A DNA stretch of 37,062 bases, from assembly GCA_051362555.1 (NCBI GenBank), contig JBPQGU010000012.1, positions 1 to 37,062 on the forward strand, in the 5' to 3' direction. Below are positions 6,880 through 36,807 of the stretch, piece by piece. How positions within the stretch are numbered: position 1 is the first letter of the stretch; each line of letters opens with the position of its first letter. The notes beneath the pieces are model-generated. The model did not search any database and had not been told where the DNA came from. It saw nothing but the letters and a program-made list of their open reading frames with translations. This DNA comes from Lingula anatina (lineage: Eukaryota; Animalia; Brachiopoda). Position numbers and translations under genes: made by a program.

Positions 6880-6926
<47 letters not shown>

Positions 6927-10860: not shown

Positions 10861-13800
10861 GTAGGAAGTAAACGTGTTGCAATGTACGCTGCTTCAAAGT
10901 ATATGAGTCATCTAAAAATTATTTCAGCTTATCCTTGGTCATAGATACCGGGGTATGCGTCCTCCTCAAACTCCCCTACTCGATTTATCAACAGAATGGT
11001 ATTTTCCTCATCAAAACAAAAAATGAACATAATAAATCTTTTGATAATTACCCTGCAAGGGGTATAAAGTAACTAAAAAAGCTTCATCTTGGCTGGGACG
11101 GGTCCCACCATTACTTCCTGGTATAAATGCTTAGCAGTCGATTGAATTAAGATGGATGTTGCAGAAATAAGGATAAACAGACATGACCTCATTTTACTGG
11201 CCCAACCTTGATAAAGTACCTAAGCTTACTATAACAATCCAATACCTGTCTCCGTTCAAACAAGAAAACAAATGCAAATAACTAGCATCTTAAGATTCAA
11301 ACCAATTGCTAGGATTGATACACAGAATTTTGTTCATTTTTATCAATCGTCACAGGCTTGAATGCTTCCCACGATAACATAAATATCTCTATTCTCTTTT
11401 GATAATATAGGTGGATTGCCATTTGCTACATTTGCCATTGAAATGAAAGATGTATATCCTTTTTTAGGGTTAGAAGTAACATTAGCTGGTTTGCCTGTCA
11501 ATGGATACGTCATGAATCCTGAGGGCGGCAACCCACAACCACTTAACCTTATGTGCAGTTACACAGTGGATCCCGGAGAGACGGCGTCGTATGTGGTTTT
11601 TTTCAGAGATGGAACTGACACAGCAAACCAAATAGTAGCTATACAGGTATCTGATGGAACTCCCAGGAAATTCAACAGCTATACCAATAGAGCTGATGTG
11701 ACGGCTTCAGGCTCTGATCCTTCATTCACGTTAACAATCGGTGGAGTCACCATGGCAGATGAGGGGAGCTATAGATGTCGTGTTAACACTGAATTCAATG
11801 TAGCCACCGTGACAACTGACGAGCAAATCCTTAGTTTACTCTGTAAGTAAATCACTGAAGTATTAGCATGTTCGATTTCTGTCCATAGAGAGGATGTATT
11901 GAAAGTTAAGGATGATTTAGAAGAAATAAGGGAGGAAATCATTACTAATTTAGTAGGCATGGACCAAAACCTTAAATATGGAAATAATATAGCGTTTACC
12001 ATTAGAGGTTGTGCGCCATCTTCTAGGTGTTATCACTTTCATTTCACCAGTAATCATATATAGCTGTAATTGTATGAATGGGTCATCTTAAAGACTCGTA
12101 CGAAATGTCGGCATGACTCTCATACTTCTTGAATGTTTCATGCGCACCGTCTGTTGTATTATGTTTAAGTTACATACATGTATGAAGCAAGCGTATGTTC
12201 CCTATAACGCATATTAACAATTTCGACTATTTTCTTATATGATTCAAAGAGAGTCGACATGACAAAGGATAAACTTAATTAATCACTTGGTCAGCCAAAG
12301 AAAAACTTTACAACTGCACTTCTAAAATATTTTGGTCGTAAACTTACTCTGTTTATCCGTGACTCCGGTTCGTAAAAGTCCACCAAATAAAGTAGTAATG
12401 TGTAGGGCATTATTTTTGCACAAACAATTACATTAATATTCAAATGATTATTGATGGAAACAACAAAGGGTTATATATACTGTAGCACAAACAGAAAGCA
12501 GAACATACTTCCTTAAATATCATATTCTGAATGTATTCGACGAAAACATTTGTTATATCTATGTTTTTGAAACCATATGGTTTCATTTGGTTTGGTTTAG
12601 TGGCAAAGATATGATTTCATATGTAACTTATAATTGTACTACTTTGTAGATCGACCAAACCCACCCCAGATTACACGAGGACCTGAAGTCGCTACAGGCA
12701 CCTACCGGGTATCTTGTTCCTCTGATGGCGGCAGACCAGCACCCGAGATAAAATGGTTTAAAATGCAGAGTTCTGATCAGATGCAGGTCAAGATGAATGA
12801 AACTTCGAACACGGTGACACCCCAGGGAGACACCTTTCTGGTCGAAAGTGCAGTAGAAGTGATGGCAACCCAGGCAGATCCAACTCAAGTATTTTGCCAA
12901 CTATTGCACGATTCTCTTACAAGTCAAACCAAGACAAGTGTTATAGTGCCTGAGAGTGCTGGTATATATATTTGGTTTGTGTATTTTACTCGGATTGGTA
13001 GTTTGTTCATTTCACTTCACTTGCGGACCAAAATAAGGTACTGGAAAAGCCTTAACTTTACCGCAAAGAGCTTATATCTTTGTTTGTAACATACTCTGTA
13101 AAACATTTTCAACACTATTCCTGTGCGTGCTCGTTTTACTGCTTATCTGAATCATTCTTCTTGGCTCGTGGATGTACATGAGGTACAATTATTATCACGT
13201 ATCTTAAGAAGTGACTGAATATCTTTTTTAGCTCCTTCAACTACCACTACTATGAAATCAACTAATCATGCAGGTAGGTACAATTTATGATGCATTTATT
13301 TTTCTTAATTGCTTCATTTTAAAACTATTTGTCCTGATAAAAAAGAATGGACGTATTAAGTCCCCCATTCATTTCTCATGCCTTATCCGGTTTTACCTAT
13401 TTACATGGAATGCACATCCGTACATTTATTATATGTTTATCTACTTGGGCGTAGAATTAAAAGTAAAATAAAATGTACACTTTTGAAATAATCCAAAGTC
13501 TAATTCTTACGTTAAGAACTATATAAAAACCCCTGAAATATAAGTGCCTGACGTCGGTTGATATTTTTGAAATATACAAGATGACATAGCTTTCTAAATA
13601 ACTGGTGAGTAATTTAGAAACAAATCAAACTAAAATCGAATGAAACCCCGATTCCAATTGCCGTCAATGATTTGTTAGTAAGTGAAAATTGTCGTTTTCA
13701 GAGGAAAAGTCAATTTGGCAGGTAAACGCCGAAAAGAGTGCCTTAAACATTAAGTTTTAAATGTAAATATCCTTCAAAAAGTGAACCAAAAAGCCTTTCA

Positions 13801-16800
13801 ACTCTTGAAAGTTGGCAATATTTAAAATAATATAGTCACATTGATCTATGAGACTTCCGATACCAAAAATATACTCCAACACTCACTCGTTCATATTTTA
13901 TTTTATTTTATTGCTCCACATTTCTGCATTATTTCTTTGCAATGGGATCGACAAGCCCCCAGTGATGCAAGGATTATAATTAGTTTTCTCTCGGCACGTT
14001 GTCGATTGAATAACACAGCACAAAAACAAATCTTTCCGATTTTTCAGCCTCCGCGGAATGACGTCGGAACAGTGCAAGCTGGCCTTTACAACGCGCGACT
14101 GAATGACGTTTTTCCGCGCAGGAGTACCCCTTTCTCTTTTACACGGCCTTTCAACAGGCGTAATCTCGTTCGTCTTTCTTCGCGACTGAACAACGTTTTT
14201 CCGCCTTGGTATTATGTGACGGTCGTTATTGGATTGTGACTGACATTTAAGAACATGAGATTTCAATGGAACTGAAAGATTTATATTGTTAATTCATTTC
14301 AAAATTCCATTTTATTATCTTAGGTGCGCTACATGTATATACTGTCGAAAGGCGTGATCATCCCGATCATTAGAACATCTCTCCTGAGGAAGCTTCCCCC
14401 GAGGGCTTATCATATTTTGTTATTCATCATTTCATTTCTCTTAAATTAATACAGATTGCTTAGAAGCGATATCAAAGTCTATATTTAAAGCATGATCATT
14501 ATTTCCATAAAATTGCAATGAATTATAATGAATAAGACTTGGTCAAAGGCCATTCTGTTTGATTATTAAAAGTTTGGCCGCGGCCTTGGATATGCAACTC
14601 TGGTTGCAGCAACATACCTGACTAGCATTTAACTTGTCGCTTGTACTATAGAAATTGTTAATCACACTTGCGCTTACAATCTGGATTTTATAGGATACGT
14701 TTTAAGGTGTCTCCGGAGTAAAAATCATTTCAGTGAAATCATGATACACAGTCAGTGTATTTTTTTTTTCAATTAATAAGGTGTATTAATAAAGATTCCT
14801 TAGTCGATCGCGATATAGACTGCGGCAGTTTAAATAGATCTTAAGTTTATTACACTAATGACGTAGTGCTTATGCATTGAATCAGCGTGTGCAGTGGTGC
14901 AACCAATCTTTAATTAATAAGGGAGTTGGAAGAACCAGCGGGTGACCGTTAAACGTTCTAATATTTAATCAACACTGAGCGGAGAACAAACAAAAAAGGA
15001 TAAAGATGTGTCACACTATGCGCTGGTGGCGGGGAAATTTCAACAAAGCCCGACTAACAACAATGTACGTCACGGTCTCCTTCAATATTTCATCCAGCTA
15101 AAAGACGAAAACAAAAATACTTTAATACCAATGTTGACTGGAGATGCATTAGAATTTTTTTGATGAATAAGTGTTGCCCCACAACTGATCGTAGTACATC
15201 CCACGATAAGATTTCGCTCGATAGACCATGTCTAGAACCATAAGTAAACCATTAGTTCTAAACTAGCTGTCATAAAAAACCTTGCTTGAAAAACTGAATA
15301 ACTATAAGACCATTGTTATTTTGCAAGGTTAAGCAGCGATAAATATGTTGATATATAGCAAACATTATCAGTATGATGTGCCGTAATACGTATATAACAG
15401 GAGTACTTTTCTATTGATGATCATATCTTGCTCATAGTGGGTGACGAAGAGGAGGTGGTTAAACCACGTAAGTGAAGAATCACTGCACATTAAACGTACA
15501 TCGTGTATCACTTTTACACGGCTTCTGCTAATGAAAATGTATCATATCGCAATATACTGATTTCTTCATAGAAATTCATTTTTCACATGAAAATAAGTAA
15601 ATCGCCGGCTATTTTGTTTATAAGTTCTGGACTTTGACAGAGAAGGACAGGCCTGCTTTAGATGACAGCCGGATTCGGTTGTATTTGTATGGGGATTGCT
15701 ACCAGTAATTAACACAGTTTTCACACGAAGTACCATTGAAACACGATGGTCGAGAGATGACTTATGAGCTGAGGTCAATATAACAAGCAGCATGGTGGCC
15801 AATAAGCTATTTAATCTTTTATGTAACCTCTCTCCAAACGCGGTGATGAAGGCTTAAACCAAGTGTTTTGGTTTCTCACTTCTTTGTTTAAGCACAGTCC
15901 CCCCCCCTCTTTTTTTCAGGACTCTGCAGCTGATGAAGGTCACTTGTTGACCGAAAAGCGCTTTCTGCAACCAGTCCAACCCCCCTTTTTTTTCGTTTCC
16001 CCAGCCGCACTGTGTGTATCTCGTACAGTCGGCCTTCAGGTCAAACACATACAGAGGCCAGACACCTCTCTCACATCATACCGAAGTGAAACAACAGCCG
16101 ATAATATTGAATACGGCAATAAATAGTTATCTAACATAATTCGAATCAGAATTATAAGACGGACACGTGCACGTTCTATCACCGTTGTCATCTCTTCACA
16201 AACACGTGATAACGCATCTAAGGGACTTTTATACTTCAATCTAAACTCTAACGTCCCAAATTTAAAAACAATCTCAAAGCTTTTAACCAGGGGCGCTGTC
16301 AAAACACACGTCCCTAGGGGCCCAGACCTGGATCGTGTTATTTTAATAATAATAATAATAATTTATTCAGCTTTGAATGTTACAATTTAACATTGTTTGC
16401 TGTCTAGTCTACTACAGGATCTACCATATTGTACTTACATAAAAAGAGAGAAAGTGATATTTCATCGTGTTGCTAACTGTATATACTGTGATAATGCTTT
16501 TAGTGATTTCTGATCTTGAGGGTTGAGGAGGATGAATAGTTTCTGATCACTGCCTGCTAATTCATAATTTTGTCTCACAGTGTTTGGGAGGGAACTGAGC
16601 ATATTTTGTCGCTCTATTTGGTATTTACTACATGTGAGGAAGAAATGTTTCTCATCCTCTATTTCCGTTTTACAGCTTGTGCAGGTTCTTTGTTCCAGGG
16701 TGATTTTCATGTGCCTGCCTTTCTCTATCGCTAGCTCGTGGTCACTAATTCTCATTTTGGCTAAGTATTTTTTGTCTGAGCTTGTGGCGTTCATTTTTAA

Positions 16801-19800
16801 GTAATTTTCAAGATCGTATGAGTTTTTTATTTTTCGATATGTACGCAGTTTATTGTGGTTCTCCTTGTTCAATTCTTTCCAAAAAAGGTCTTCGATTTTT
16901 AGATTAATTTCTTTTTCTAGGTCTGATGTTTCATCCCAATGTTGAATTCCCCAATTCTGTCTAAATGCCGCCACTGTTTTAGTCCAATTATCTATTTTCA
17001 GGAGTTTTTCTTCGCTAAATGTTTGTTTCAGTATTCTTGTATTCGGGAGATTTTTAAGTCTGGTGTGGTATTTTTGCATGGATTTAATTATATCTGTAAG
17101 GATTGGGTATCTACCCAATTCTGCTCTGCAGGCATTATTACTGGCAGTTTTTCTCACTCCTAATACCCATTTGCACATTTTTAGGTGAATTTGCTCGAAG
17201 GACGTGTTATTGATTTTATCTAGGCTTGGTGATTTTTCTTTGAGAATTTCCTGACCCCATACCTCGCTACCATATAGTAAAATTGGTTTTACAGTTTTAT
17301 CAAATAGTTTCATTTGTAATAGTGGATTAGATATGTTTTGGGAGGATAAAGTGCTTTTAAGCGCAAACATGGCCTTCATTGCTTTTTGTTTTAGATTGTG
17401 TATTGCTTTCTTGAGGTTACCTGTATTGGTGAAGGTGATACCTAGATAAGTATATTCTGTAACGTTTTCCAGGATATTTTCATTTATTGTGAATTTTAGG
17501 TGCTGTTCTGTTTTTCCAGCTTTGTTGAAAATTAATATTTTGCACTTTTTCTCGTTTACCTGGAGCTGCCATTTTTTGCAGTATTTTTCAAGGCGTGACA
17601 ATGATTTTTGCAGGCCATCACTTGTTTCTGAGAGTAGTACCAGGTCATCAGCATACAGTATATGAAATAGTCTTTCATCGCCATTTGGGTTTAGGGCAGT
17701 TTTCACATCATCAATAAAAATGTTAAAAAGGACTGGACTTAGATTGTCGCCTTGCTTAATTCCCAATTTAGAATAAAATGGTTCTGTGTATCCTTCCCCA
17801 ACCGATATCCCTAGTTTTGTTTGACTGTACATTGCTTTGATTAATTTGTAAAATTTTCCCCCAATACCCAGTTTTAGTAGTTTGTACATTAGACCTTTGT
17901 GCCAAACAGTGTCAAAAGCCTTTTTAAAGTCAATAAAACATGCATAAAGACGCTTGTTTTGGTTTACGTATCTATTAACTAAAGATTTTAAGGTAAAAAT
18001 GTGGTCTGTTGTGCGGTATCCTGGCCTAAAACCAGCTTGCTCTTCACTGAGTAGATGTTCATTCTGCAAATAGTCAGTCAGTCTCTTACAGAGTATTGAG
18101 TTAAACAGTTTCCCCAGACAACTGGTGATGCACAGTCCTCGATAATTTGATGGATTCATATGTTCACCACTTTTATGGATAGGTATGATGATGCCAAGGT
18201 TCCAAGTGTCGGGAATTTCAGTGGTATTGAGGATAAGATTAAAGATCTTTGTGATAACAATTGCTAGGTACTGGGTTCCTACTTTAAGCATTTCATTCTT
18301 AATTGCATCTTCCCCAGCTGCTTTCCCACTTTTAAGCTTTTTCAGGGCATTTTTCACTTCATGACATGTTATTGCACTGTCTAGTATTGGAATACCCTCT
18401 TGTCTTTCCATCTCTTTTAACGGGGCATCGATTATGTTGTTTTCTTTTGGGGCAATCCCACAAAGCTGGTGAAAGTGTTTAAGCCAAATGTCTGGACTAA
18501 TTAAGTTGTGCCTGGTTTCTTTTTCTTTCAGGTTTTTAAAAACTTCCCAGAATTCTTTAGGGTTTTTCTCTTCGTTTTCGAGTAATCTTTTAAGTAGAAA
18601 ATCTTTGTGCTCCCGTTTTTTACGCTTAATTAGTTGCTTATATTTTCTAGAGGCTTCATGGTAGGTGTGGGCAACAAAGTTGTTTCCTGGGTTGTTCTGT
18701 AGCAATTTCCCAAGGTGCTTTATATTGCGCCTGATTTCGGCACATGTGCCGTCAAACCAGGGGTGTTTTTTCACTCGTTTTGTCTTATTAGTTCCATTTC
18801 TAGGAGGCTTTCTCTTTGCCAGTGATTTATTAGCCGCATTACAAAGAATATTTTGGAGTTCATTACAAGCTTTGTTCACTCCTTCTTTAGTGTTAGGGAA
18901 GTGGGTGCATTGGAGTTTGCTAATTTCATTGATCGATTCATCATCTTCTAGAGCGTTTAAAAATTTTTCAGGCGAGTCTGGTTTCCAAATGTACTGCTCG
19001 TTGAATCTGTGAACTGTTGTTGAGATAGCAGATTTTTGTATGACATTAGTACGTATTGATAGTTCTAGCAGGCAGTGATCAGATAAATAATCAATGGGGT
19101 GTATTGTGAAAAAATTTACATCGCTAAGCAGCCCATCACTCACAATAGCATAGTCTACAGTGCTGCAGCCCTGTCTGTTATAACATGTAAAATAGCCTAG
19201 GGAGTTTCCTATTGTTCTCCCATTCAATATTTTCATGCTACTTGCAATATTTTGATAAGAGTTAGTTTAACTAAGACATGAGCCGACCACCCCTAAACAA
19301 CGAATGTTAAATCGCAACTACAAAGGGGAGGATGTGGTGTGGTGTGAAGATAGCCACAGAGACAGAGTACAGAGTATATGTACAGGAAAAACGAGAGGAT
19401 GAAGACAGTAAGTGGTTTTATTCCTTTTGTTATTTTCATAATATTCATGTATTTTTATCTTTAATAATTGATTATCAATGTGTGTTGATAAATTACCAAG
19501 TCTTTGATTTTATTACATTCTCCATGTCTGTTGTAATGGTAGGCTACATGCATTCTTGTAATTCTCAATCCTGATATTTCTCTGAATTTTTTTTAGTCAG
19601 ACATGCTGTTCCCTTTACCCAGTTATGTTTAATACGTTATTACACATTATATTTTGATATCATTTCGTTATATCTTCACAGAAACCGTTAAGAAGGACAC
19701 CGCGCTGGAAAAAAGGAAAGGGCGATAGCAGCACAGAACAAAGGGAAGACGTTGAAAGGGGCAACGGCAGAAATATCTGACGCGGGGGTGTGCCAGGCTA

Positions 19801-22800
19801 AAGAAGTGCTCAAATTGATGTGTGGAAAATAATTTACACGCAAGGGCGATTTGATGTGTGGAAAATAATTTACACGCAAGGACGATTAGAATCCAAAGTT
19901 GTAGATTAGATAATACCACAGTATTCAACATGAAAAATGTTAATATATCTCCTTTACGGTGATTGATTTTTACTTACTGTTTTTATATATATTGTTATTA
20001 CAATGAGATCAGTACTTCTTATATTTGAACATATATTTGTATATTATTTTGCTGTGATCCCAAGTAAACTGATATGTAATAATTCAGGCCCATTCTTGAA
20101 AGTCCAAATGACTACAGTACGCGGGAAGCTAAATCATCAATGCACAAATTACAGTGCATTATTATCTCACTGATAGTAGGCATTTTAAAAATATCCTGAA
20201 AATCACGTATCACCGGGTATAATGTCTTCGTTTCACGAAGGGTGGAGAATAAACAATTGCATTCACAAGTCGCGTGAATGGGGTGCTTCACGAATCACGC
20301 TAAATAACATGAACGTTTCACACACTTCAAGAAATAATTAGCTGTATTTTCTACAGATTTATTCTGAAAGTAAATTTTTCTCTTAGAATTTGAGCAGCAT
20401 TTATTTGATTTTGATTAAATACTTTAAGTTAGTCGGATATTTCAGGTACAAAATGTGTTGCGTTTCTCTTCTTTTTAATTTTCCCGTATTTTTAATGTTA
20501 TTCTATTTCTTTAGGCTACGCATTTTGTAGGGGTTTTGGTGACAATATTTCATCTTTGCTTGGAAACTTGGCTTCATCGCCTTACTCAATGTGAACAAAA
20601 ATACCTAATGAGTGTAATTCTTAAAACGGGGTCGGGCAATTAGGGCACACATAATTGGCATGTTATTTAACGAGTGGCCACTCTCTGCAAATACATTAAG
20701 TCGATGGATAAGTAGTAGTCGTTTTCGTTTTCCTCATATGTTTACCAGATGTCAGATAAATAATGGAAAAAGCCTCTATTTATGAATCTGTGACGTTCCT
20801 ATAATTGTACTTTTGCTTAGATTTTGTTCTGGAAAGTCGTATTTAAATGTGGTTCGTATTTATTTGCGTAATTATTTTACTAGGTATATTTTAAATGGTA
20901 TTCGCTATTGTTTAGGGTGTGCGTATAATGAGTGTACAAAATAATACATTAGTGTAAGATTACTTTCCACTTGTGAAATATAGTAGCTGTGTTGCGCTTT
21001 ATAAACATAATCCCCACTGCATTGTAATGGTTGTTGTTTTTTGCAATAAATTACTATAAATGAAAATTCACAAGCCTTCCTCTCATTAAATGAAATGCTA
21101 CATGAATTTGAAACATTATCAGTGCTATAAGTAATCGAAATAACTATAATCGTCCATATTTGATTAGATAAGGGTTGTAAAGACTTACCTGAAATTGCCT
21201 TTATTTGATCGGAAAAGGGTTATAATGACATACCTCATATCGCATTTACTTCATCGGAAAAGGGTTATAAAGACGTGTCAAAAATCGCCTATATTTGATC
21301 GGAAAGGAGTTGTAAAGAGGTTGTTTTTAGACGCCTATACTTGATCGGAAAGACGTAGTAATAGTGCAACTACAATTTTAAGCTTAGGCATAAAAGGGTA
21401 GTAAACCCGTAGACCCTGACCTTTCCGGTAGAGCTTTACACCGTTGAAAAGGCTTGTAAAGAGAATATTCAGACCCATTTCCTGAAGAGTAAAAGAGCTG
21501 AAAATTGACTTTTTGTGCTGTGTAATAAGTGCCTCTTTATGTTTTTTTCAGCTCTCTCAGCTAACAAACCTGCAAAATCTACAGGAGGTAGGTGCAGTTC
21601 GGTGTAAATTGTTTTCGTTTGCTTCAAAATATGATAAAAACTTTTCAAGCCAACCATAAAGTACTCGTTAGTTTAAGTCAATTCTCACGCTTTATCTGGC
21701 ATAGCCAATTAGAAGATCATACAGTTTTCCATTCCACCACAACCTTTCCAGCTGTAATGCAAACAATCTTAGTCAGTTTAGGTGACGCTAATTATTTTTC
21801 AGGGAATATACTTGGTTACATATTAATTTATTCATTTATAGTCTGTTTTGTATTTCTCTTATATCACATTTGCAGTGTCTCCATCTACAACAACATGTAA
21901 TTAAACCAAGAGCACTGCGGAACACAAACTGAGGTGTACAGTACTCAGTACCTGTTGGTTGAAGGGGTGGGCGGGGTGGGGGCTTTGGTAACCGACCGTG
22001 AACTTCTACTTGATAATCTTCTTTGTACTGGGACACTCTCATACGGTTAACCATGCTTCGGTATCATAAACGTGAACGTGGCACATCATAAGACATTCCG
22101 GGTTGATATTTTACAGTGGTGCTACCAATGTGTATATTATGTTTCAGTTGACAAAAGTCAGATAACTTCTACTCGATAATCTGTATTCATCACCCTCTTT
22201 TCTTGGTACTGGGACACTCTCATCCGACTAACTATGCTTCTGTACCATCCTTATAAATTAAATGTGAACGTTGTAGATCATTAGACATTCCGGGTGAATA
22301 TTTTAGTGTGGTCGTACCAAAGGGTATATTATGTTTCAGTTAACAAAAATCAGAAAGGATTATACTTGGCAACCCATTTAAATTATATTTGTTGTATTAC
22401 AGGCATTGATGGGAGAACAGTATCAATCATTGTGATATCGTTGTTAGCAATGTGCCTTTTTTGCATAATTGCATACCTTGTATTCCGCATTCGGTCATTG
22501 TCCAGAAGACTCAAATCACAAGCATCTGAACAGCAACATAACACTGTTATTACAAACAATGTAACAGAACACTCAAACAACGTTAACAGCTGTCCATTCA
22601 ATATCCAAGTATCTATGAATCACGCGACAGATCATTCCTCTGGTTTTGATGGGGTTCATGCTGACTATGACGATACTGCATTGGCGAATAGTTACGAAGA
22701 ACTTCGGCGGGATAATTGTTCAGATGGGCAATACATGGAACTTGGAGAGAACCTGTTGCCGTCTACCGCCACAAATGGTATTGGTGACTATAATTACATT

Positions 22801-22803
22801 TAA
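10806..22803 (+). CDS. Ig-superfamily type I membrane receptor gene A (SP-V-C-stalk-TM-ITAM-like tail), 7 exons, 413 aa
   Basis: Hand-spliced with GT-AG, all introns phase 1: 10806-10860, 11468-11842, 12650-12961, 13232-13273, 21552-21587, 21876-21896, 22403-22803. Total 1242 nt, open frame. Every exon has a collinear counterpart in gene B. Confidence 0.88.
11113..11123 (-). promoter_or_regulatory. Conserved intron-1 ETS-type site ACTTCCTGGTA
   Basis: Identical 11-mer at 1092, 6278 and 11113 in otherwise diverged introns; mutated in psi3 (35610). Confidence 0.45.
11468..11842 (+). CDS. Gene A exon 2, V-set Ig domain
   Basis: Acceptor TTTTTAG, donor GTAAGT. Motifs L.C (strand B), FTLTI (strand E) and DEGSYRC (strand F, DxGxYxC). 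The two Cys are 74 aa apart. Confidence 0.92.
12650..12961 (+). CDS. Gene A exon 3, C-type Ig domain (C1-like / CD80-type C2)
   Basis: VSCSSDGGRPAPEIKW...TFLVES.V...VFCQLLHDSL, the pattern seen in nectin/B7/butyrophilin membrane-proximal domains. N-glycosylation sequon NET. AG/GT boundaries. Confidence 0.9.
13232..13273 (+). CDS. Gene A stalk micro-exon 1 (APSTTTTMKSTNHA)
   Basis: TTTTTTAG acceptor, CAG|GTAGG donor, 42 nt in frame. Paralogue at 30318-30356. Confidence 0.8.
15925..15969 (+). ncRNA. Minimal type I hammerhead ribozyme motif (Penelope/retrozyme-like)
   Basis: TGCAG-CTGATGA-A-GGTCA(cttgt)TGACC-GAAA-A(GCGC)T-TT-CTGCA: stem I 5 bp, stem II 5 bp, minimal stem III with a palindromic loop. 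Confidence 0.7.
16345..19247 (-). mobile_element. 5'-truncated non-LTR retrotransposon (LINE; RTEX- or L2/CR1-group-like) nested in the DNA transposon
   Basis: AATAAA plus (TTA)n 3' tail at 16345-16367. Imperfect TSD TATTTT(A/G)ATAA at 16339-49 and 19248-58. Starts within the APE endonuclease. Confidence 0.88.
16462..19236 (-). CDS. LINE ORF2: C-terminal part of APE endonuclease, reverse transcriptase and C-terminal Cys/His motif
   Basis: 924-aa uninterrupted ORF: STVDY...SDH (EN end), NYRGL, QAGFR, FIDFKKAFD, QGDNLSP, YADD, YLG, and CxxC...EDEKHFFLTC. Confidence 0.95.
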   Translation of the reverse strand: MKILNGRTIGNSLGYFTCYNRQGCSTVDYAIVSDGLLSDVNFFTIHPIDYLSDHCLLELSIRTNVIQKSAISTTVHRFNEQYIWKPDSPEKFLNALEDDESINEISKLQCTHFPNTKEGVNKACNELQNILCNAANKSLAKRKPPRNGTNKTKRVKKHPWFDGTCAEIRRNIKHLGKLLQNNPGNNFVAHTYHEASRKYKQLIKRKKREHKDFLLKRLLENEEKNPKEFWEVFKNLKEKETRHNLISPDIWLKHFHQLCGIAPKENNIIDAPLKEMERQEGIPILDSAITCHEVKNALKKLKSGKAAGEDAIKNEMLKVGTQYLAIVITKIFNLILNTTEIPDTWNLGIIIPIHKSGEHMNPSNYRGLCITSCLGKLFNSILCKRLTDYLQNEHLLSEEQAGFRPGYRTTDHIFTLKSLVNRYVNQNKRLYACFIDFKKAFDTVWHKGLMYKLLKLGIGGKFYKLIKAMYSQTKLGISVGEGYTEPFYSKLGIKQGDNLSPVLFNIFIDDVKTALNPNGDERLFHILYADDLVLLSETSDGLQKSLSRLEKYCKKWQLQVNEKKCKILIFNKAGKTEQHLKFTINENILENVTEYTYLGITFTNTGNLKKAIHNLKQKAMKAMFALKSTLSSQNISNPLLQMKLFDKTVKPILLYGSEVWGQEILKEKSPSLDKINNTSFEQIHLKMCKWVLGVRKTASNNACRAELGRYPILTDIIKSMQKYHTRLKNLPNTRILKQTFSEEKLLKIDNWTKTVAAFRQNWGIQHWDETSDLEKEINLKIEDLFWKELNKENHNKLRTYRKIKNSYDLENYLKMNATSSDKKYLAKMRISDHELAIEKGRHMKITLEQRTCTSCKTEIEDEKHFFLTCSKYQIERQNMLSSLPNTVRQNYELAGSDQKLFILLNPQDQKSLKALSQYIQLATR
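21552..21587 (+). CDS. Gene A stalk micro-exon 2 (ALSANKPAKSTG)
   Basis: TTTTTTTCAG acceptor, GTAGG donor, 36 nt. Paralogue at 31033-31068. Confidence 0.75.
21876..21896 (+). CDS. Gene A stalk micro-exon 3 (VSPSTTT)
   Basis: Pyrimidine tract plus TGCAG acceptor, weaker GTAATT donor, 21 nt, Ser/Thr-rich. Paralogue at 31357-31377. Confidence 0.6.
22403..22803 (+). CDS. Gene A last exon: TM helix and tyrosine-motif cytoplasmic tail
   Basis: TACAG acceptor. Hydrophobic VSIIVISLLAMCLFCIIAYLVF followed by basic RIRSLSRRLK. Tail has YDDT, YEEL-x9-YMEL and YNYI*. Confidence 0.88.
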
Positions 22804-23727: not shown

Positions 23728-23963
23728 CACACACTGGACAATAGAAGTGTCACCCCTACTGAACTAATACTTTGGGGGAGATAAATGACAGTGGAATGAT
23801 ATGCTCCTGGTTTCATTTTATTAACATCAGATTTCACAAAAAGACCAACAATACAATTCCATTGTACAGTGGTTTTATACTCATTAGTTACATTTTAAGT
23901 AGACCAAGCATTTTAACTTTGATTACTCTGATTCAGGGGGTGACAATTCTATTGTCCAGTGTG
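23728..23963. mobile_element. Tc1/mariner-type MITE
   Basis: TIR CACACTGGACAATAGAA(G/T)TGTCACCCC, TA on both sides. Empty site TTTTTAAGATATCTG in the paralogous flank at ~8563-8578. Confidence 0.85.
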
Positions 23964-24862: not shown

Positions 24863-24872
24863 TTTTACTTAT

Positions 24873-24963
24873 GGCCACACTTTTTTATTTTTATGGATGA
24901 CATCCTCTGGGGACCCCAAAATGGGTGCGAGCGGGCGAAAAAAAAAAAAAAAAAAAAACAGTC

Positions 24964-24996
<33 letters not shown>

Positions 24997-25949: not shown

Positions 25950-26617
25950 TATGTTTTGTAGTTTATAGTTTATATTTTAACCAAGTGTTTTAATCTTTAC
26001 GTCCTATTTGAAGACAAATGTTCTTGGATGAGAAAAATCGTAAAATCCGTTCTGTGTTTTAATTTAAAAAGTGCTGGATAGTTAGGCTGATATTAAATTA
26101 AAGTCTTGCTTGCTTGTTTATTCGTATGTTTGCTTGTTTATTCCTTTAATTGTATTATTTGAGTACAAATTAGATTTGTAGAAAGGGATTTTACAATAAT
26201 ATTATAAATGGAAGTCGCTTGAATTTCTACTAGAGACTTTGTATTGCAGGTTTTCATGCACGCATTTATTATTAAATAAAACCGCTTATAAAACATTTTC
26301 GTGCATCATGCAATCACTTGACAGTTTCCTTATGTACCTATGAAGCCAAGTCCTTATAAGAGCGATTTCAATAATATTTGCCCTTTCTTGACATATTTCG
26401 GAAAATAGAATAGCAGTGATCCACTCTCAAGTAGGCCTACAGTAATTTACCGATGCTGAAAATTTTCCAGCATAACGTTCTGTATACAGCAGGTTAATTG
26501 TGTTAGGTGTGTTTTGTTGATTATCGGGGAGCGACGGGGTTGTTATTTTTAGCTGCCAATAAAAAAACCCCAGGAAGTACCTGTACCTGCGGCTAAAGGC
26601 AACATCACGGAGGAAAA

Positions 26618-26672
26618 ATGAAGACGTGGTGTGTTTATGTGCTGCTGTTTGTAACTCCATATACAACTGAAG
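26618..26672 (+). CDS. Gene B exon 1, signal peptide MKTWCVYVLLFVTPYTTE(G)
   Basis: 55 nt, donor GTAGG, homologous to gene A exon 1. Confidence 0.82.
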
Positions 26673-29600
26673 GTAGGGACTAAGCATGATATTCTATACT
26701 TTAAAATAATTTAATAGTCTTGAAGATTCGTCAGCTTAACCTCCGCATAAACAACAGGATGATCGCTTCTATAGACCCCCCACGTGGCGCGTTTTCAAAA
26801 GATAAAGAACAAAAACAACTTCACACGCCATTTTAAACAAGATGATGACAATTTCTAACATTTACGATAAAAAAAAATTATTATGGCTCTTTAGGTTATA
26901 TTATGAGGCCAATCGTAAAAAATACTTCCTTCATAGTAGGAGTACTACGCACCCAATAGAAGTTTTTGATGCCACTAGGGAGGTCAGGTCACACCGCTCA
27001 CGCAGTCGAAAACGGGAAGAAATCTAACCTCGCTGTTTGTTTTCCATCATTACTTCCAGGATTTGGGTCCTATGATAAATATGAAAGTATATTTAAAAAG
27101 TGCATTGAATGGGCTTTCGAACAATATGTGTAACAATGTATCATGTCTCTGTTGTTAGCCTCCAGCCACGAAAATGCTGCGAGAAATCGCCGGTGATTTC
27201 ACTTCCTCGTTTGGTACCCACTATTAAAGAATTTTGCTCAACCTGCGCGTTTCGCGCCATTTTTCTAAAATAAAAGCTCCGTACGGCGTCCCGGATGTTA
27301 TTTCGTCGTATTTGGCCACATATTCATGCAGAGAATGATCCAACCGTTCGACTGAGGGGTTACAGAAGTTGATTTAACCGAAAACAGCAACCACAACTAG
27401 CTTGTAAAGTTTTTAATCGTGTTTTACAGTTAGAGTAACGAAGTTCTGAAAATTCTGTTACCCCTACCTAGATAATTAAACTAATTCTTGGTTCAATTTA
27501 GTTATCTATTTATCATTTTTTGGTAAGACAGAGCCGTAACAGCCGTTAGAAAATCAGTGACTTTGATCTTACGGCAAACAAAATGGCGAACGCACCAAGC
27601 TGTTCTGCTGATGAAAAAGCAACTGTACTTTCAGCACCCAAAGAGGATCAACATATCAGAATATCTAATCAGAAAATCTTTGAATTGTTCACGAAACCCA
27701 ATGATATTGATAAAACGTCTGCAATTCAAGAATATAGAGTTTATTTTATTTTTCAAACAAAGTATGAAATTACGTACGATATTGATGGGGCTAACTCGTT
27801 AGTGAACATAAAAAGGGGAATCTTAAAATCATGGAGATATGCAATAACTCTAGAATGGTTAATGAAAGTCGAACAAAAGTGAACAAAAGAAGTATTTATT
27901 TATTTTTTCTTAACACACACAAAAAAAGAAAAAAAAAAAGAAAAAAAGAAAGAAAATTCCTAAAACTCTCTCCAAAAAATCTCGCTGGTTTTTGTATTAC
28001 CTACCTGCTATGATGTCCAATATCAATTAATTTTTTTTTTTTGCAAAATTATAACTTACCAAAATCGGATATTATTTATTTTCATTGTGCATTCTGGCAT
28101 TTTTACTAGTTAAACCTTAAAATCGTATATGCAATTGTCATTGTAATATTGGTTGCCATGGCAACAGTGACAGAGTATTTGTTTACTATTTAACTTAAAT
28201 TCATAAACTGAGTACCAAGAGTGTTTCCCACTTCATATTCAGTTTAAAAATTCATGATAATGTGTAAAAAATAATTCAAACTGTTACCATAGCAACAGCT
28301 ATCATAATGACAATTTCTATAGCAACAGATACATTAGAAACTATTATTTTTTATTTTAATTACGGCACGTTATTTAGCATCATTTTCATCCAAAAGTAGC
28401 CTTTGGGCAGTGATGTTGAAGCCTTAGGATGAAAAAAAAAAAAAAGTATCGACCGCTATTGATATTTAGCAATGGTTGCCATGGAAATAATGGATAAATT
28501 ACAGAAAATTGTATCTTGTCAGATTCTTCTTGGCATAGTGTAACTTTCCAGAAAATTTCAAATGGATATTTTATTCCATTCAAAAGTTATGCCAATTTTG
28601 TTTAATTGATTGGGCAATTAGGTGACACTTTTGGCTTCCACTGTTACAAATGCTTGCATACAAGACTTTTTCAAAATTTTGTGGCTGACTAGCATTCTTG
28701 AAAATTTGATAACTTTTGATTGGCTTGCTTGATTTTCAAAAAATAAAATGTTTTGGAAAGCTCATAAATTGCTTTATCAGATAATATCATTTTGGCTGAT
28801 ATTTATGTTACTATCAAAGTTGACCTGACCTCCCTTATGCCATAGTGGTATGATAAGGCAAGAAGAATAACATGACCTTTTACCTTTCTGCGCCTATTTG
28901 TGTAAATTTTGCTAACTAATTATCAATTATGCAGGTATACAGTATTATTGACTACAGTCCAACGCCTGTCAACACAATGCACCAACACAATAGGTTAACT
29001 TGCAACTTTCCATCTTAATCCGACTGCAATGATTGATACACCTCAAATACTGGTGTGACACTCACCACTGAAATGAACACTCTCAGATACATGGATACAA
29101 ATTGGATAATTGAGAGATTTCTTGCTAGACGTTTCCTGGGGTTTTTGATGAGTATAGTAATTCTATGTGCTTATACCATAGGTTTAGAGGTAACATTAGC
29201 TGATTTGCCGACCCATGGGTACGTCATGAATCCTGAGAGCGGCAACCCACAACCGTTAAACCTTGTGTGCAGTTACACAGTGGATCCCGGAGAGACAGCG
29301 CAGTACGTCGTATTCTACAAAGATGGAACGGGCACTGCAAACCAAATAGCAGGAATAGAAGTTTCTACTGGATATGCCATGAAGCAGAACGAATATAATA
29401 CGAGATCTGACGTGACGGTTACAGTCTCTGATCCATCATTCACTTTAACAATTGTTACAGTCACTCTGGCAGATGAGGGTAATTTTTACTGCAAAGTTTC
29501 CGCCCCATTCAATAATCCCGTTTTTACGACTCCAGTCCAGGCCCTCAAATTACTGTGTAAGTAAAAGTCGGTGCAATATTCATGCTAATAAAAACTTTTG

Positions 29601-32259
29601 TAATTGCTTTGTCTTTTACTAAATAATATTCCTCAAACCAAAAAATAGAACTTAAAACGTTCACATGGGGTAGTTTCACAAATTGTTGAGCTTTACGATA
29701 ATTTTCTTTTATGTTATAATTTATGATTTGCAGATCGGCCGAACCCGCCCCAGATTACAAGAGGACCTCAAGTCGCCACAGATACCTACCGGGTAACTTG
29801 TTCCTCTGATGGCGGAAGACCAGCACCTGAGATAAAGTGGTTTAAAATGCAAAGTTCTAACCAGATGCAGGTCAAGATGAATGAAACCTCGAACACGGTG
29901 ACACCCCAGGGAGACACCTTTCTGGTGGAAAGTGAAGTAGAAGTGATGGCAACCCAAGCAGATCCAGTTGAAGTTTTTTGCCAACTACTGCACGATTCTC
30001 TTACAAGTCAAACCAAAACAAGTGTTATAGTGCCGGGGAGTGCTGGTATGTATATTTGGTTCGTGTATTTTACTCGGATTGGTAGTTTGATCATTTCATT
30101 TCACTTGAGAACAAAAAATAAAGAGCTGGAAAAACCTAAACTTTACCGCAAAGAGCTTATATCTTTATTTGTAACATACTCTGTAAAACATATTTCAACA
30201 CTATACCTGTGCGTGCTCATTTTACTGCTTTTCTAAATCATTCTTCTTGGCTTGTGGATGTGCATGAGGTACATTTATTATTTCTTATCTTTAGAAGTGA
30301 CTGAATTCCCTTTTTAGCTCCTTCAACTACCACTACTGTGAAATCCACTAATGCAGGTAGGTACAATTTATGTTGGATTTATTTTTCTTAATTGCTTATT
30401 TTAAAACTATTTGTCCTGATAAAAAAGAATGGACGTGTTAAGTCCCCCATTCATTTCTTATACCTTATCCTGTTTGACCTATTTACATGGACTGCACATC
30501 CATACATTTATTATATGCACATCTACTTGGGCCGTAGAGATATATTTTAGATAAAATGTACACTTATGAATTATTTCCAATGTTTAATACAGACGTTAAG
30601 AACTATAATAAAAACTCCCTAAAATAGAAGTGCCTGACGTCGGTTGTTATTTTTGAAATATACAAGAAGTTATTTAGAAACAAATCGATTCCAATTGCCG
30701 TCAATGATTTGTTTGTAAGTTAAAATTGTCATTTTCAAAAGTCAATTTGGCAGGTAAACGCCGAATAGAGTGCCTTAAACATTACGTTTTTAAGGTAAAA
30801 TATCCTTCAAAAAGTGGACCAAAAAGCCTGGTAACTCTTAGAAGTTTGCAATATTTAAAATGATATAGTCACATTGATCTATGACAGTTCTGATACCAAA
30901 AATATACTCCAACACTCACTAGTTCTCGTTTTATTCTATTGCTCCAAATTTCTGCATTATTTGTCTTTGCAAGGGAATCGACAAGCCCAAAGTAGTCGAT
31001 TGAATAATAAGTGCCTCTTTATGTTTTTTCAGCTCTCTCAACTAGCAGCGTTGCCGTATCTACAGCAGGTAGGTGCAGTTCGGAGTAAATTGTTTTCGTT
31101 TGCTTCAAAATATGATAAATTTTTTTTAACCCAACCATTAGGTACGCGTTGGTTTAAGTCAATTCTCACGCTTTATCTGGCATAGCCAATTGGAAGATCA
31201 TACAGGTTTACATTCAACCACAACCTTTCCAGTTGTAATACAAACAATCTTAGTCAGTTTAGGTGACGCTTATTATTTTTCAGGGAATATACTTGGTTAC
31301 ATATTTATTTATTCATTTATAGTCTGTTTTGTATTTCTCTTATATCACATTTGCAGTGTCTCCAACTACAACAACATGTAATTAAACCAAGAGCACTGCG
31401 GAACACAAACTGAGGTGTACAGTACTCAGTACCTGTTGGTTGAAGGGGTGGGCGGGGTGGGGGCTTTGGTAACCGACCGTGAACTTCTACTTGATAATCC
31501 TCTTTGTACTGGGACACTCTCATACGGTTAACCATGCTTCGGTATCATAAACGTGAACGTGGCACATCATAAGACATTCCGGGTTGATATTTTACAGTTG
31601 AGCTACCAATGTGTATATTATGTTTCAGTTGAAAAAAGTCAGATAACTTCTACTCGATAATCTGTATCCATCACCCTCTCTTCTTGGTACTGGGACACTC
31701 TCATCCGACTAACTATGCTTCTGTACCATCCTTATAAATTAATGTGAACGTTGTAGATCATTAGACATTCCGGGTGAATATTTTAGTGTGGTCGTACCAA
31801 TGGGTATATTATGTTTCAGTTAACAAAAATCAGAAAGGATTATACTTGGCAACCCATTTAAATTATATCTTTTGTATTTCAGGCATTGATGGGGGAACAG
31901 TATCAATCATTGTGGTATCGTTGTTAGCAATGTGCCTTTTTTGCATAATTGCATACCTTGTATTCCGCACTCGGTCATTGTCCAGGAGACTCAAATCACA
32001 AGCTTCTGAACAGCAACATGGCAGTGTTATTACAAACACTGTTAACAGTCCATTCAATGTCCAAGTATCTATGAATCGCGCGACAGATCATTCCTCTGGT
32101 TTTGATGAGGTTCATGTTGACTATGACGATACTGCATTGGCGAATAGTTACGAAGAACTTCGGCGGGATAACCGTTCAGATGGGCAATACATGGAACTTG
32201 GAGAGAACCTATTGCCGTCTACCGCCACAAATGGTATTGGTGACTATAATTACATTTAA
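26618..32259 (+). CDS. Ig-superfamily type I membrane receptor gene B (SP-V-C-stalk-TM-ITAM-like tail), 7 exons, 404 aa
   Basis: Exons 26618-26672, 29182-29556, 29734-30045, 30318-30356, 31033-31068, 31357-31377, 31883-32259. Total 1215 nt, open frame, GT-AG phase-1 introns. Confidence 0.88.
26977..28835. mobile_element. 1.86-kb non-autonomous TIR element (Kolobok-like) in gene B intron 1
   Basis: 15-bp TIR AGGGAGGTCAGGTCA / TGACCTGACCTCCCT and internal GTTGCCATGGCAAC-type palindromes (28152, 28283, 28475). It accounts for intron 1 being 2.5 kb in B versus 0.6 kb in A. TSD is degenerate. Confidence 0.72.
29182..29556 (+). CDS. Gene B exon 2, V-set Ig domain
   Basis: 375 nt like gene A. LVC...FTLTI...DEGNFYC. 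ATAG acceptor, GTAAGT donor. Confidence 0.92.
29734..30045 (+). CDS. Gene B exon 3, C-type Ig domain
   Basis: 312 nt; 96 of 104 aa identical to gene A C exon. Confidence 0.9.
30318..31377 (+). CDS. Gene B stalk micro-exons 30318-30356 (APSTTTTVKSTNA), 31033-31068 (ALSTSSVAVSTA), 31357-31377 (VSPTTTT)
   Basis: AG/GT-bounded, lengths 39/36/21 nt, collinear with gene A. Confidence 0.72.
31883..32259 (+). CDS. Gene B last exon: TM helix and ITAM-like tail
   Basis: TTTCAG acceptor. VSIIVVSLLAMCLFCIIAYLVF, YEELRRDNRSDGQYMEL, YNYI*. Eight aa shorter than A in the proximal tail. Confidence 0.88.
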
Positions 32260-34006
32260 TTTTCCAAGGATGACCTCAAGACTAGTCAATTCAAAGGTGG
32301 CCCAGATGAGTGATTGTATTGTATAATATACCTAAGGGTAAAAATATTAAACCCTTAAATAATAGGAAATTATCATGAAAATTGCAGATTTAACGATTTT
32401 GAACTCCACATTTTGTGGCAGTACAATAGTTGAAGATGTTTCGTTATACATGCAGTCAGGAACCTCTCAACATGTACTTGGTTCGTAATTAAAAAGATCC
32501 ACAATGTTCAATGTATAACAAAATGACTTGAAGACATTTAAATTTACATGCATATGTCATACAATCATCAAAGTGTTATGCTTCTTGCATACAAGTATAT
32601 GACGCATCCAAAACATTTTATAGTAATTGATTCCGATTTTAAGTATTTTCACACTGTACAGTATTGAATTATGATAACATGCTAGTTTGGTGTCGCAAGC
32701 TACGACTAAACTGTTAAGGGAGCACATCTGTGATTTAAGGCATTAATAAAATCAATTAATTGTTGAAAACTTGTTGGTATTGGCTGTAATACTTTTGTTA
32801 CTTTCCAAGACTGCGTTGCATTTTCACATTACGTATGACGATTCAAAGAATTTGCTTTCACTGTGTCAATGTGTTGCTTATTACTTTGCTTAAATATATT
32901 TATTCCTAGATATATAAATCATCATTTATTGCTTTTAGCGTCTTCGACCTGTTGCCTAAACTTATGGGTTTTATAGGAATTGTCGCTAGCTTAATCAATT
33001 GTAAGTAAGTATTGCAGTGAGGAATATACATGTCGAACGGTGTATGTGATAAATTAATACATAAGCATTTTTCACCTAAAAGCTAGATTGGTTTGTTTTT
33101 ATGGATGCCAAGAAACAGTTCGTTTATATATTAACAGATGTTTTTATCTGGCTGTTACATGGGTTATTTTATTTTACGTATAGGCATACATGTATTATAA
33201 AGTTGTTCTGTGATTTTTAAATCAAAATTAAATTAAATTAAAATTTTAACATTGGAATAAATTATATTAAAACCGATTTTATTAATCCCTTTAATTGTTC
33301 TATATGATTAAAAATCCGTAAATAATAAGGTTAATAATATGAAATTAAAAGTAAACAACACTGAAAACTTCTTGAATTTCTTCATTACAATTTGTGCGTC
33401 ACAAGTTTTTATGTGCGTATTTGTTGTTAAATAAAACCCTTTTGATAAAATCCACGTCCATGCAATTATTTGGCAGTCACTTTGTGCGACAATGAACTCC
33501 AGACTCAAAATGACATAAAAAATGTCCATTGATAAAATCGATATATGCTTTACAGTGTAGAAATAGCACGACAAAATACAGTGTATCACTAAAGCCCCCA
33601 TAACTGAATGCATGCTTTCTGCGACTCTCTACGACCAAAGATGTAGCCTGCAGGACGCTCAATGGTCGCCAATGCAAGAAAACCGTGTCCTTGTAAATGT
33701 GTCTGTTACCCTTATGTGTGTTTTCAACGACCAAGGCTGGATTTCATGTCCAATTAACAGCGACCTGAATGACTTTCAACTCCCATGTGAGTCCACTGTG
33801 CAGCCTACAACGTCCATTGCGATATTTGAGCATCCATTGAGCAACCAGGGTGTGATTACTGTACCTTCATCAGCGATCAGTGGCGACCATTCTACGATCT
33901 TTCTACGATATTATGCTAGACAGATGACCGTTGTTTGGGCGTCCTCTGGCGACTGCTGTGCGACCGGAAGTGCTTTTCATTCACGGGCTCTGCTACTTCT
34001 ATCATT

Positions 34007-36770: not shown

Positions 36771-36807
36771 ATAAAAAACATTAAAGTACCACAAACGTGT
36801 CAAAAGC

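What the first reader, a model, noticed from the sequence alone, without database searches (positions are those of the whole stretch)
11468..33027. Variable head on a homogenised constant body: sharp identity switch at the V/C boundary
Seen: A and B V domains differ at 42/125 aa. Their promoters and intron 1 align poorly, and intron 2 (807 vs 177 bp) does not align by eye. From the C-exon acceptor onward they are very similar: C exon 8/104 aa different, and the 3' UTR/flank (22804-23568 vs 32260-33027) is almost identical. Inference: gene conversion or unequal crossover repeatedly places one C-stalk-TM-signalling module behind old, divergent leader+V modules. This is a germline analogue of V/C modularity and the reverse of vertebrate paired receptors, where ectodomains are homogenised and tails differ.
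Basis: partly seen in the sequence, partly recalled or inferred. Interest (0 to 1): 0.8.

Follow-up and report, generated by a model that had tools for sequence, protein, structure and literature searches.

The report
Brachiopod Ig receptors share swapped tails
Two neighbouring antibody-like receptor genes of the lamp shell Lingula have very different tip domains but nearly identical membrane and signalling ends, likely because DNA was copied between them more than once, a pattern already described for Toll-like receptors and protocadherins.

Summary
V differs at 42/124 aa, C at 8/103; intron 2 is unalignable. But identity rises in steps, not one switch: about 73% (V), 90.6% (C exon to intron 5), 97.7% (from A 21760), 99% in the UTR. 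Silent divergence of V and C is not significantly different, so much of the protein contrast is selection. A is nevertheless a mosaic: its V groups with other paralogues, its C with B (p=4e-6). The block is flanked on both sides by old homology, which favours nested gene conversion. Short-read contigs bridge B's V/C junction; no long-read proof. Family-wide, tails are not uniform: an A-like V also sits on an ITAM-less tail, the paired-receptor direction. The same polarity is published for TLR1/TLR6 and fugu protocadherins. Verdict: new member of a known kind; not a V/C system.

The parts
10806..10860 (+). Gene A leader exon (signal peptide)
   Evidence: same leader in L. anatina protein P0011
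11468..11842 (+). Gene A V-set Ig exon
   Evidence: Pfam V-set 35.3 bits, cutoff 26; 97% identical to P0011; model matches V domains
11843..12649 (+). Gene A intron 2, not alignable to B intron 2
   Evidence: joint 11842-12650 GT..AG in RNA reads of the family
12650..12961 (+). Gene A C2-set Ig exon; codons 12-21 resemble P0004, codons 44-62 resemble B
   Evidence: Pfam C2-set_2 36.1 bits, cutoff 21
13232..13273 (+). Gene A stalk exon S1
   Evidence: present in P0007
14014..21522 (.). 7.5 kb insertion in A intron 4: 13 bp terminal inverted repeats, TAA target duplication, nested reverse-transcriptase element
   Evidence: empty site (joint 14010-21523) in contigs of 3 of 4 DNA runs
21552..21587 (+). 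Gene A stalk exon S2, 10/36 nt different from B
   Evidence: identical peptide in P0007
21760..23571 (+). Young homogenised tract in A (2.3% from B)
   Evidence: changepoint
22403..22803 (+). Gene A TM and cytoplasmic exon with ITAM consensus
   Evidence: 125/131 aa identical to P0007
26618..26672 (+). Gene B leader exon
29182..29556 (+). Gene B V-set Ig exon
   Evidence: Pfam V-set 30.3 bits
29734..30045 (+). Gene B C2-set Ig exon
   Evidence: Pfam C2-set_2 39.7 bits; V-intron 2-C junction bridged by contigs 29414-29804 without differences in X1 and X2
30318..30356 (+). Gene B stalk exon S1
31033..31068 (+). Gene B stalk exon S2
31241..33028 (+). Young homogenised tract in B; ends at a roughly 920 bp gap relative to A
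31883..32259 (+). Gene B TM and cytoplasmic exon with ITAM consensus
5915..7940 (+). Pseudogene X: broken leader, V fragment, no C exon, frameshifted tail exon only 74% identical to A/B (an un-homogenised tail copy)
34898..36023 (+). Relic D: A-type promoter, leader, intron 1 and truncated V
   Evidence: 72-81% identical to the head of A by two aligners

Best explanation
A and B are tandem Ig-superfamily receptor genes (V-set, C2-set, stalk, membrane helix, tail with an ITAM consensus) whose heads are old and divergent and whose 3' parts were likely overwritten from one another by at least two nested gene-conversion or unequal-crossover events, and which are predicted to signal ligand binding through a Syk-type kinase. 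Shown: the exon anatomy, the three identity tiers, the V-versus-C conflict, the motif. Inferred: an older exchange (about 0.10 changes per non-coding site) put a B-type C-stalk-tail body behind the A-type head, stopping at unalignable intron 2 or within the first 20-45 codons of the C exon, because strand exchange needs homology; younger tracts (0.01-0.02, near the 1.6% heterozygosity reported for the species) refreshed intron 5 to the 3' UTR and end at a gap in B. Purifying selection on C (dN/dS 0.13) and weaker constraint on V (0.53) sharpen the contrast at protein level. The setting is a birth-and-death array full of relics. The immune or self-recognition role is inferred from architecture only.
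For: Tiers and changepoint. Non-coding and fourfold sites share the high identity in the 3' tier (intron 6 10/505, UTR 12/768, fourfold 3/49), which selection on protein cannot give. Old homology on both sides of the block: V 73%, promoter about 67-75%, and downstream 77% over 65 bp and 69% over 110 bp. Mosaic A: triplet tests p=4e-6 and 5e-6; V tree holds A+P0001u2+P0004 at 100/99 and rejects A+B. The other A allele (P0007) is A-like at 9 of 13 A/B differences in the tail but shares G4 and T29 with B where A and two outgroup tails have R and I, as expected of continuing exchange. ITAM consensus in A, B, P0006, P0007. Precedents: PMC2077338, PMC1852091; ITAM-Syk signalling of an oyster Ig receptor, PMC6994640 (abstract).
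Against: C-domain tree is weak (A+B 62/29) and does not reject the V grouping (p-AU 0.13). V and C silent divergence do not differ significantly (p=0.09-0.10), and C fourfold sites (10/49) are more diverged than neighbouring introns (83/895; p=0.02). GC3 is not raised in the converted tail (0.37 vs 0.41-0.44), unlike fugu protocadherins. The within-C breakpoint is not significant at DNA level (p=0.08). Only two intact genes are available as DNA; the ten other V-C units are protein models from another assembly and some may be fused models. Transcripts could not be assigned to A or B.
Confidence: 0.72

Rival explanations
1. One reading: a dedicated germline V/C system in which one constant C-stalk-TM-signalling module is repeatedly and adaptively placed behind many old leader+V heads at the V/C intron.
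For: Homology starts within about 20 bp of the C acceptor; ITAM-type tails follow A-type, B-type and a third V lineage (P0001, P0006); V differences cluster at residues 61-80 and 91-120.
Against: Body is two-tiered with the main step in intron 5; stalk exon S2 is 28% different; other ITAM-type tails are 70-78% identical, the neighbouring relic 74% at DNA level; other heads carry unrelated tails; several pairs have V at least as similar as C, e.g. A/P0004 0.86 vs 0.83, P0002u1/P0003u2 0.95 vs 0.87.
Confidence: 0.1
2. No exchange at the V/C boundary: A and B are a plain duplication; V simply evolved faster under diversifying selection and introns 1-2 were rewritten by indels; only the far 3' tract was converted.
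For: dN differs between V and C (64/280 vs 9/236, p=1e-10) while dS does not significantly; C is more conserved than V family-wide; C tree does not reject V topology.
Against: A's V is 86-88% identical to P0004 and P0001u2 but 66% to B, whereas A's C is 92% to B and 83% to those two; A's promoter and intron 1 align along their length with relic D but not with B; introns 3-4 are 90-91% identical while intron 2 is at shuffle level.
Confidence: 0.1
3. Assembly artefact or allelism: A and B are two haplotypes of one very polymorphic locus laid in tandem, or the 3' block was duplicated or cross-polished by the assembler.
For: The 3' tier (0.9-3%) is close to the species' 1.6% heterozygosity (PMC4595640); no contig spans the whole stretch; no B-like V model was found among proteins (best 66%); letters private to the window at 21884 and 32964 are read as the other copy's letter in contigs.
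Against: Middle tier is 9.4% and downstream flanks 69-77% apart, far above allelic level; both genes are followed by homologous spacer and a next family promoter, as in a tandem array; independently assembled contigs bridge B's V-C junction with no differences in X1 and X2 (which may be the window's own source); in X1 two contigs of the 3' block have depth 291 and 317 against 114-123 for four B-head contigs (a hint only); A-type contigs occur in X3 and X8, and a contig laid on B's tail with 6 differences where A and B differ at 12 occurs in X8.
Confidence: 0.08

Closest known systems
Mammalian TLR1/TLR6 partial gene conversion (PMC2077338; abstract and 4 passages read)
   Same: Tandem immune-receptor paralogues with divergent N-terminal recognition part and converted membrane-proximal, TM and signalling part; bounded tract.
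   Different: LRR/TIR instead of Ig/ITAM; shown there to recur in nine species, here one species; here two tiers and multi-exon genes.
Fugu clustered protocadherins (PMC1852091; section 7 read whole)
   Same: 5' region 60-80% identical, 3' region near-identical, discrete boundary, converted regions differ between subclusters.
   Different: 3' identity above 99% across many paralogues with raised GC3; here two genes, 91-98%, no GC3 rise.
Hydractinia Alr family (PMC9546547; passages read)
   Same: Invertebrate cluster of V-set single-pass receptors with pseudogenes, single-exon domains and ITAM tails.
   Different: There tails are more divergent than ectodomains, the spacer is Fn3-like, and allorecognition is shown; no homology beyond the Ig fold was tested here.
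Oyster CgIgR (PMC6994640; abstract read)
   Same: Lophotrochozoan Ig receptor with cytoplasmic ITAM; reported to bind bacteria and recruit Syk.
   Different: Five Ig domains; not described as a recombining cluster; orthology not tested.
[quoted passage not shown]
   Same: Domain-limited conversion between Ig-receptor paralogues; A versus P0004 (similar V, different tail) has this polarity.
   Different: A versus B has the opposite polarity; no ITIM found in A or B.
V-C2 adhesion/costimulatory Ig proteins (CD276/B7-H3, nectins, JAM, SYG-1/Kirrel)
   Same: Best solved-structure sequence matches of paralogue P0004, E 2e-12 to 1e-3; same V + C2 + TM layout.
   Different: Matches are generic Ig similarity; close relatives were found only in Lingula.

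Membership tests
Partial (regional) concerted evolution of tandem receptor paralogues, TLR1/TLR6 and protocadherin type | Near-identity extends to silent and non-coding sites in a bounded 3' tract | tested here: met
   Intron 6 10/505, UTR 12/768, fourfold 3/49; older homology on both sides
Partial (regional) concerted evolution of tandem receptor paralogues, TLR1/TLR6 and protocadherin type | Different regions of one gene give conflicting relationships | tested here: met
   Triplet tests p=4e-6, 5e-6; V rejects A+B (p-AU 0.0006); C tree alone weak and does not reject the V grouping
Partial (regional) concerted evolution of tandem receptor paralogues, TLR1/TLR6 and protocadherin type | Raised GC3 in the converted region (used as support in fugu) | tested here: not met
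   GC3 0.37 in both tails vs 0.41-0.44 in V and C
Partial (regional) concerted evolution of tandem receptor paralogues, TLR1/TLR6 and protocadherin type | Independent recurrence in several species (paralogues closer than orthologues) | not testable with these tools
   No second lingulid species among the protein hits; no eukaryote genome search available
Antigen-receptor V/C system of jawed vertebrates | Many V segments served by a shared constant gene | tested here: not met
   A and B each carry their own C, stalk and tail exons
Antigen-receptor V/C system of jawed vertebrates | C1-set constant domain | tested here: not met
   Best Pfam family is C2-set_2; no C1-set hit listed at E<=0.1
Antigen-receptor V/C system of jawed vertebrates | Joining of one gene's V to another's C in RNA or somatic DNA | tested here: inconclusive
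   No A-B cross joint among 15 joints shown; 26 not shown; low depth
Antigen-receptor V/C system of jawed vertebrates | Recombination signal sequences / RAG | not tested
   V exons are complete and intron-flanked, so none is needed
V-C2-TM Ig-superfamily receptor | N-terminal V-set domain | tested here: met
   Pfam V-set above cutoff in A and B; model (pLDDT 69) matches nanobody, VH and NKp44 V domains, TM about 0.6-0.7; the usual C-strand Trp (recalled convention) is absent
V-C2-TM Ig-superfamily receptor | Membrane-proximal C2-set domain and single uncharged TM helix | tested here: met
ITAM-bearing activating receptor | Yxx[I/L]x(6-9)Yxx[I/L] in the cytoplasmic tail (definition from PMC9546547) | tested here: met
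   One match with a 9-residue spacer in A and in B, also P0006 and P0007; not in 8 other proteins scanned
ITAM-bearing activating receptor | Phosphorylation and Syk/Shark recruitment | not testable with these tools
   Needs a binding assay; a Lingula Syk gene was not looked for
Paired receptors (shared ectodomain, opposing tails) | Similar ectodomain with activating and inhibitory tails | tested here: inconclusive
   A vs P0004: V 86%, C 83%, ITAM vs none; ITIM scanned only in A and B, none found

The most novel reading that the evidence does not exclude
The Lingula cluster is a combinatorial receptor kit: recurrent germline exchange at or just inside the conserved C exon permutes several V-head lineages with several tail types (ITAM, ITAM-less TM, short hydrophobic end), giving a brachiopod an undescribed polymorphic family of activating and non-signalling Ig receptors for pathogen or self/non-self recognition, with selection protecting short exons (stalk S2) from homogenisation.
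Probability: 0.25. Interest if true: 0.7.

Novelty: new member of a known kind. Interest (0 to 1): 0.4.

Why it matters
The evolutionary pattern is known, so it does not change how receptor diversity is thought to arise. What is worth keeping is the family: a Lingula-restricted, tandem, pseudogene-rich cluster of V-C2 receptors with an ITAM consensus and head/tail mosaics. The proteins carry only automatic names in public records, and four paper searches that named Lingula or brachiopods with immunoglobulin terms listed no study of it (listings only; open-access library only). If it is polymorphic and expressed in coelomocytes it gives brachiopods a candidate immune or allorecognition receptor set to compare with Hydractinia Alr and oyster CgIgR, and a compact example of how a non-homologous intron or an insertion fixes where conversion tracts stop.

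Tried and rejected
No whole genome is held, so paralogue DNA outside the window could not be compared and GENECONV-type tests on many copies were not possible. No RNA holder was listed for 29000-33400; not evidence. RNA of four same-species runs (6-25% of each read, 90% likeness): V-C joint GT..AG in 9, 5, 0 and 2 reads, but V reads carry other letters (e.g. 14 of 14 at 11505 in X10) and a loose end that I read by eye as the P0004 leader, so most come from a paralogue; the bin with A's tail exon had depth 1.0, 0.2, 0 and 3.2; the B leader bin had none in 4 of 4; expression of A or B is neither shown nor excluded. A 21 nt candidate exon S3 (21876-21896, 31357-31377) keeps frame but is absent from P0007; left unsupported. 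Global alignments give 71-75% for introns 1 and 2 only by forcing 15-66 gaps; rejected after shuffle control. CpG decay does not explain the C-exon silent divergence (3 of 27 differences). A changepoint inside the C exon is not significant. Rfam: 0 matches. ESM Atlas gave only generic Ig clusters. Earlier-findings look-ups returned nothing. Rows left out of the trees: P0001u1 (V without C), P0003u3 (partial), P0011 (allele of A, partial C); P0012 was outgroup and dropped. Of 79 representative hits only the top four were family members; the other 75 were not examined. Supplements of the papers were not opened.
Full report
What the window holds. A self-comparison shows two long repeats between 12628-23571 and 29714-33028 (89% and 95%) and weaker matches among several other segments. 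Exon models give two open genes on the + strand: A (leader 10806-10860, V 11468-11842, C 12650-12961, stalk S1 13232-13273, stalk S2 21552-21587, TM-tail 22403-22803) and B (26618-26672, 29182-29556, 29734-30045, 30318-30356, 31033-31068, 31883-32259). Pfam calls the first domain V-set and the second CD80-like C2-set, both above cutoff in both genes; a model of A's V (mean pLDDT 69) matches antibody, nanobody and NKp44 V domains. The tail has an uncharged helix and one ITAM consensus, YxxL-x9-YxxL, followed by a last YxxI. All close protein relatives are named Lingula anatina. P0011 (97% identical to A's V) and P0007 (125/131 to A's tail, same S2 peptide) lie on one 154 kb contig of another assembly, so gene A exists outside this window; the organism is inferred to be L. 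anatina or a very close relative. No B-like V model was found (best 66%).

Checking the observation. Intron 2 aligns no better than shuffles (83 of 200) and intron 1 barely (8 of 200); the promoter does align (score 69, shuffle maximum 27). But the body is not uniform. From the C acceptor to A 21759 there are 141 mismatches in 1500 columns; from 21760 to the end 41 in 1787; none of 200 permutations reached this step, and a smaller step at 22885 leaves 6/687. Per segment: C 91.3%, intron 3 90.0%, intron 4a 91.0%, S2 72%, intron 5 93.8%, intron 6 98.0%, TM-tail 95.8%, UTR 98-99%. dS and dN are 0.52/0.275 for V, 0.30/0.039 for C, 0.059/0.051 for the tail. Fourfold sites differ at 16/42, 10/49 and 3/49; V versus C p=0.10, whereas non-synonymous divergence differs at p=1e-10. 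So the amino-acid switch at V/C is to a large part a change in constraint; the recent homogenisation begins about 240 bp behind the insertion site, after the second stalk exon.

Is there real exchange at the V/C boundary? Yes, by three lines. First, 12 V-C units (A, B and 10 cut from protein models P0001-P0006) give mean identity 0.69 for V and 0.80 for C over 66 pairs, yet A's V is 0.86-0.88 to P0004 and P0001u2 and 0.66 to B, while A's C is 0.92 to B and 0.83 to those two. Second, informative sites flip: against P0004, A=P0004 28 and A=B 3 in V, 6 and 16 in C (p=4e-6); against P0001u2 31:4 and 3:12 (p=5e-6); the V tree holds A+P0001u2+P0004 at 100/99 and rejects A+B (p-AU 0.0006; 0.002 with the outgroup). 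Against this, the C tree joins A+B at only 62/29 and does not reject the V grouping (p-AU 0.13). Third, A's promoter, leader and intron 1 align end to end with relic D at 34898-36023 but not with B, whose promoter matches relic E better. A shares residues 12, 16 and 21 of C with P0004 and residues 44-62 with B, so the switch may lie inside the C exon; at DNA level that is not significant (p=0.08).

Conversion or crossover. The near-identical block stops at 23571/33028. Beyond it B lacks about 920 bp that A shares with the flank of relic X (74-78%), and old A/B homology resumes (77% over 65 bp, 69% over 110 bp) before the next promoter. A young tract between old homology on both sides favours conversion or double exchange over a single crossover or a fresh duplication, though the gap hides the exact right end. 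In the tail, the other A allele P0007 sides with A at 9 of 13 A/B differences and with B at 4, two of which are derived relative to P0001 and P0006, a small hint of continuing exchange. The youngest tier is near the 1.6% heterozygosity given for the species (PMC4595640, passage). The boundaries fall where homology breaks: unalignable intron 2, the diverged S2 exon beside a polymorphic 7.5 kb insertion, and the gap in B. That is what strand exchange predicts (established knowledge) and needs no dedicated mechanism.

Artefact test. Contigs of four DNA runs were laid on 13400-33399. In X1 and X2 a 391 bp contig crosses B's V end, intron 2 and C start without a difference; these runs may be the window's source, so this shows the junction is in short-read data, not that it is general. 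In X1 two contigs of the 3' block have depth 291 and 317 against 114-123 for four B-head contigs; the tool warns that depth is no copy number, so this is a hint that the block is multi-copy. X3 and X8 have A-type contigs at 21523-21818 (4-5 differences where A and B differ at 27), and X2, X3 and X8 show the site without the insertion. No piece spans the A-to-B spacer, so tandem arrangement rests on the window itself and on the array-like spacer homology.

The family argues against one constant module. ITAM-type tails in P0001 and P0006 are 70-78% identical to A and B, and the relic 4 kb upstream of A's V is 74% identical at DNA level and frameshifted. P0004/P0010 carry an A-like V and C on an unrelated TM tail without ITAM; P0002 and P0012 end in a short hydrophobic stretch; P0005 has yet another end. 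Heads and tails are therefore mixed in both directions. Some of these are automatic gene models with several V-C units and may be fusions.

Comparison with what is known. Divergent head on converted TM and signalling end is published for mammalian TLR1/TLR6 (PMC2077338, abstract and passages) and, with a discrete boundary and over 99% 3' identity, for fugu protocadherins (PMC1852091, section 7). The opposite polarity is the Siglec-11/16 case (PMC5701461, abstract). Invertebrate V-set receptors with ITAM tails in a pseudogene-rich cluster are known from Hydractinia (PMC9546547, passages), and an ITAM-Syk Ig receptor from oyster (PMC6994640, abstract). It works like TLR1/TLR6-type regional concerted evolution; it is not a member of the antigen-receptor V/C system (own C per gene, C2-set not C1-set). 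Searches listed no paper on this Lingula family (titles and abstract starts only).

Function. Inferred, not shown: V binds variable ligands (A/B differences cluster at residues 61-80 and 91-120, and family variability peaks at 61-70 and 101-120; in the model these cover strands and loops in the second half of the domain), C2 and stalk hold it out, the ITAM recruits a Syk-type kinase. RNA of four runs confirms the V-C splice for the family but cannot be assigned to A or B.

Verdict. Observation partly confirmed; recombination real; 'germline V/C analogue' not supported. New member of a known kind, interest 0.4, carried mainly by the apparently unstudied ITAM-bearing Ig cluster in a brachiopod.

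Noticed in passing
window 14014-21522: High-copy insertion with 13 bp terminal inverted repeats and a TAA target duplication in A intron 4; empty site seen in contigs of X2, X3, X8. CAC ends with a 3 bp duplication recall CMC/Chapaev-type DNA transposons (recalled, not tested).
   Followed up: partly
window 16462-19266 (-): 934-codon open frame with a reverse-transcriptase domain (Pfam RVT_1, E 2e-42), a non-LTR retroelement nested in the insertion; contigs without it (joints near 16338-19248) in X1, X3, X8.
   Followed up: partly
window 21552-21587 and 31033-31068: Stalk exon S2 differs at 10 of 36 nt (9 non-synonymous, 1 synonymous), more than the non-coding middle tier (p=0.002); the TM-tail exon is also more diverged than its flanks (16/377 vs 22/1273, p=0.009). 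Exons seem to resist homogenisation.
   Followed up: partly
window 22801-22857 and 32257-32313: A and B share a stop after YNYI that is followed (in A, checked) by 17 open codons and a second stop; relic X has a sense codon at that place and reads on through the homologous stretch: likely a shared, derived shortening of the tail.
   Followed up: partly
window 35299-35353: Leader of relic D translates to the exact leader of public model P0001, tying this window to that gene cluster; its own V (35927-36023) is truncated and frameshifted.
   Followed up: partly
window 36629-37062 vs 6701-7140: A second young duplication (96-97% identical) of a V-fragment plus poly(A)-containing segment, joined at 36629 to a different promoter and leader than at 6701.
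   Followed up: partly
window 1434-1770: Broken V exon (stops, frameshift), about 75% identical to both A and B.
   Followed up: partly
window 2130-2850 and 4823-5219: Long inverted repeats (90-95% identical) with internal short tandem units enclosing about 2 kb; looks like a foldback or non-autonomous DNA transposon.
   Followed up: no
window 22019-22162 vs 22200-22354 (and 31498-31643 vs 31679-31834): A roughly 150 bp internal duplication (about 79% identical) in intron 6, present in both genes.
   Followed up: no
window 24556-26040: Very high-copy, transcribed repeats in the A-B spacer (summed contig depth up to 180,000; RNA on both strands).
   Followed up: no
window 12593-12617: 13 of 13 stranded reads in X10 and in X12 lie in A intron 2 with four shared other letters; a short transcribed repeat or a paralogue's exon or UTR.
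   Followed up: no
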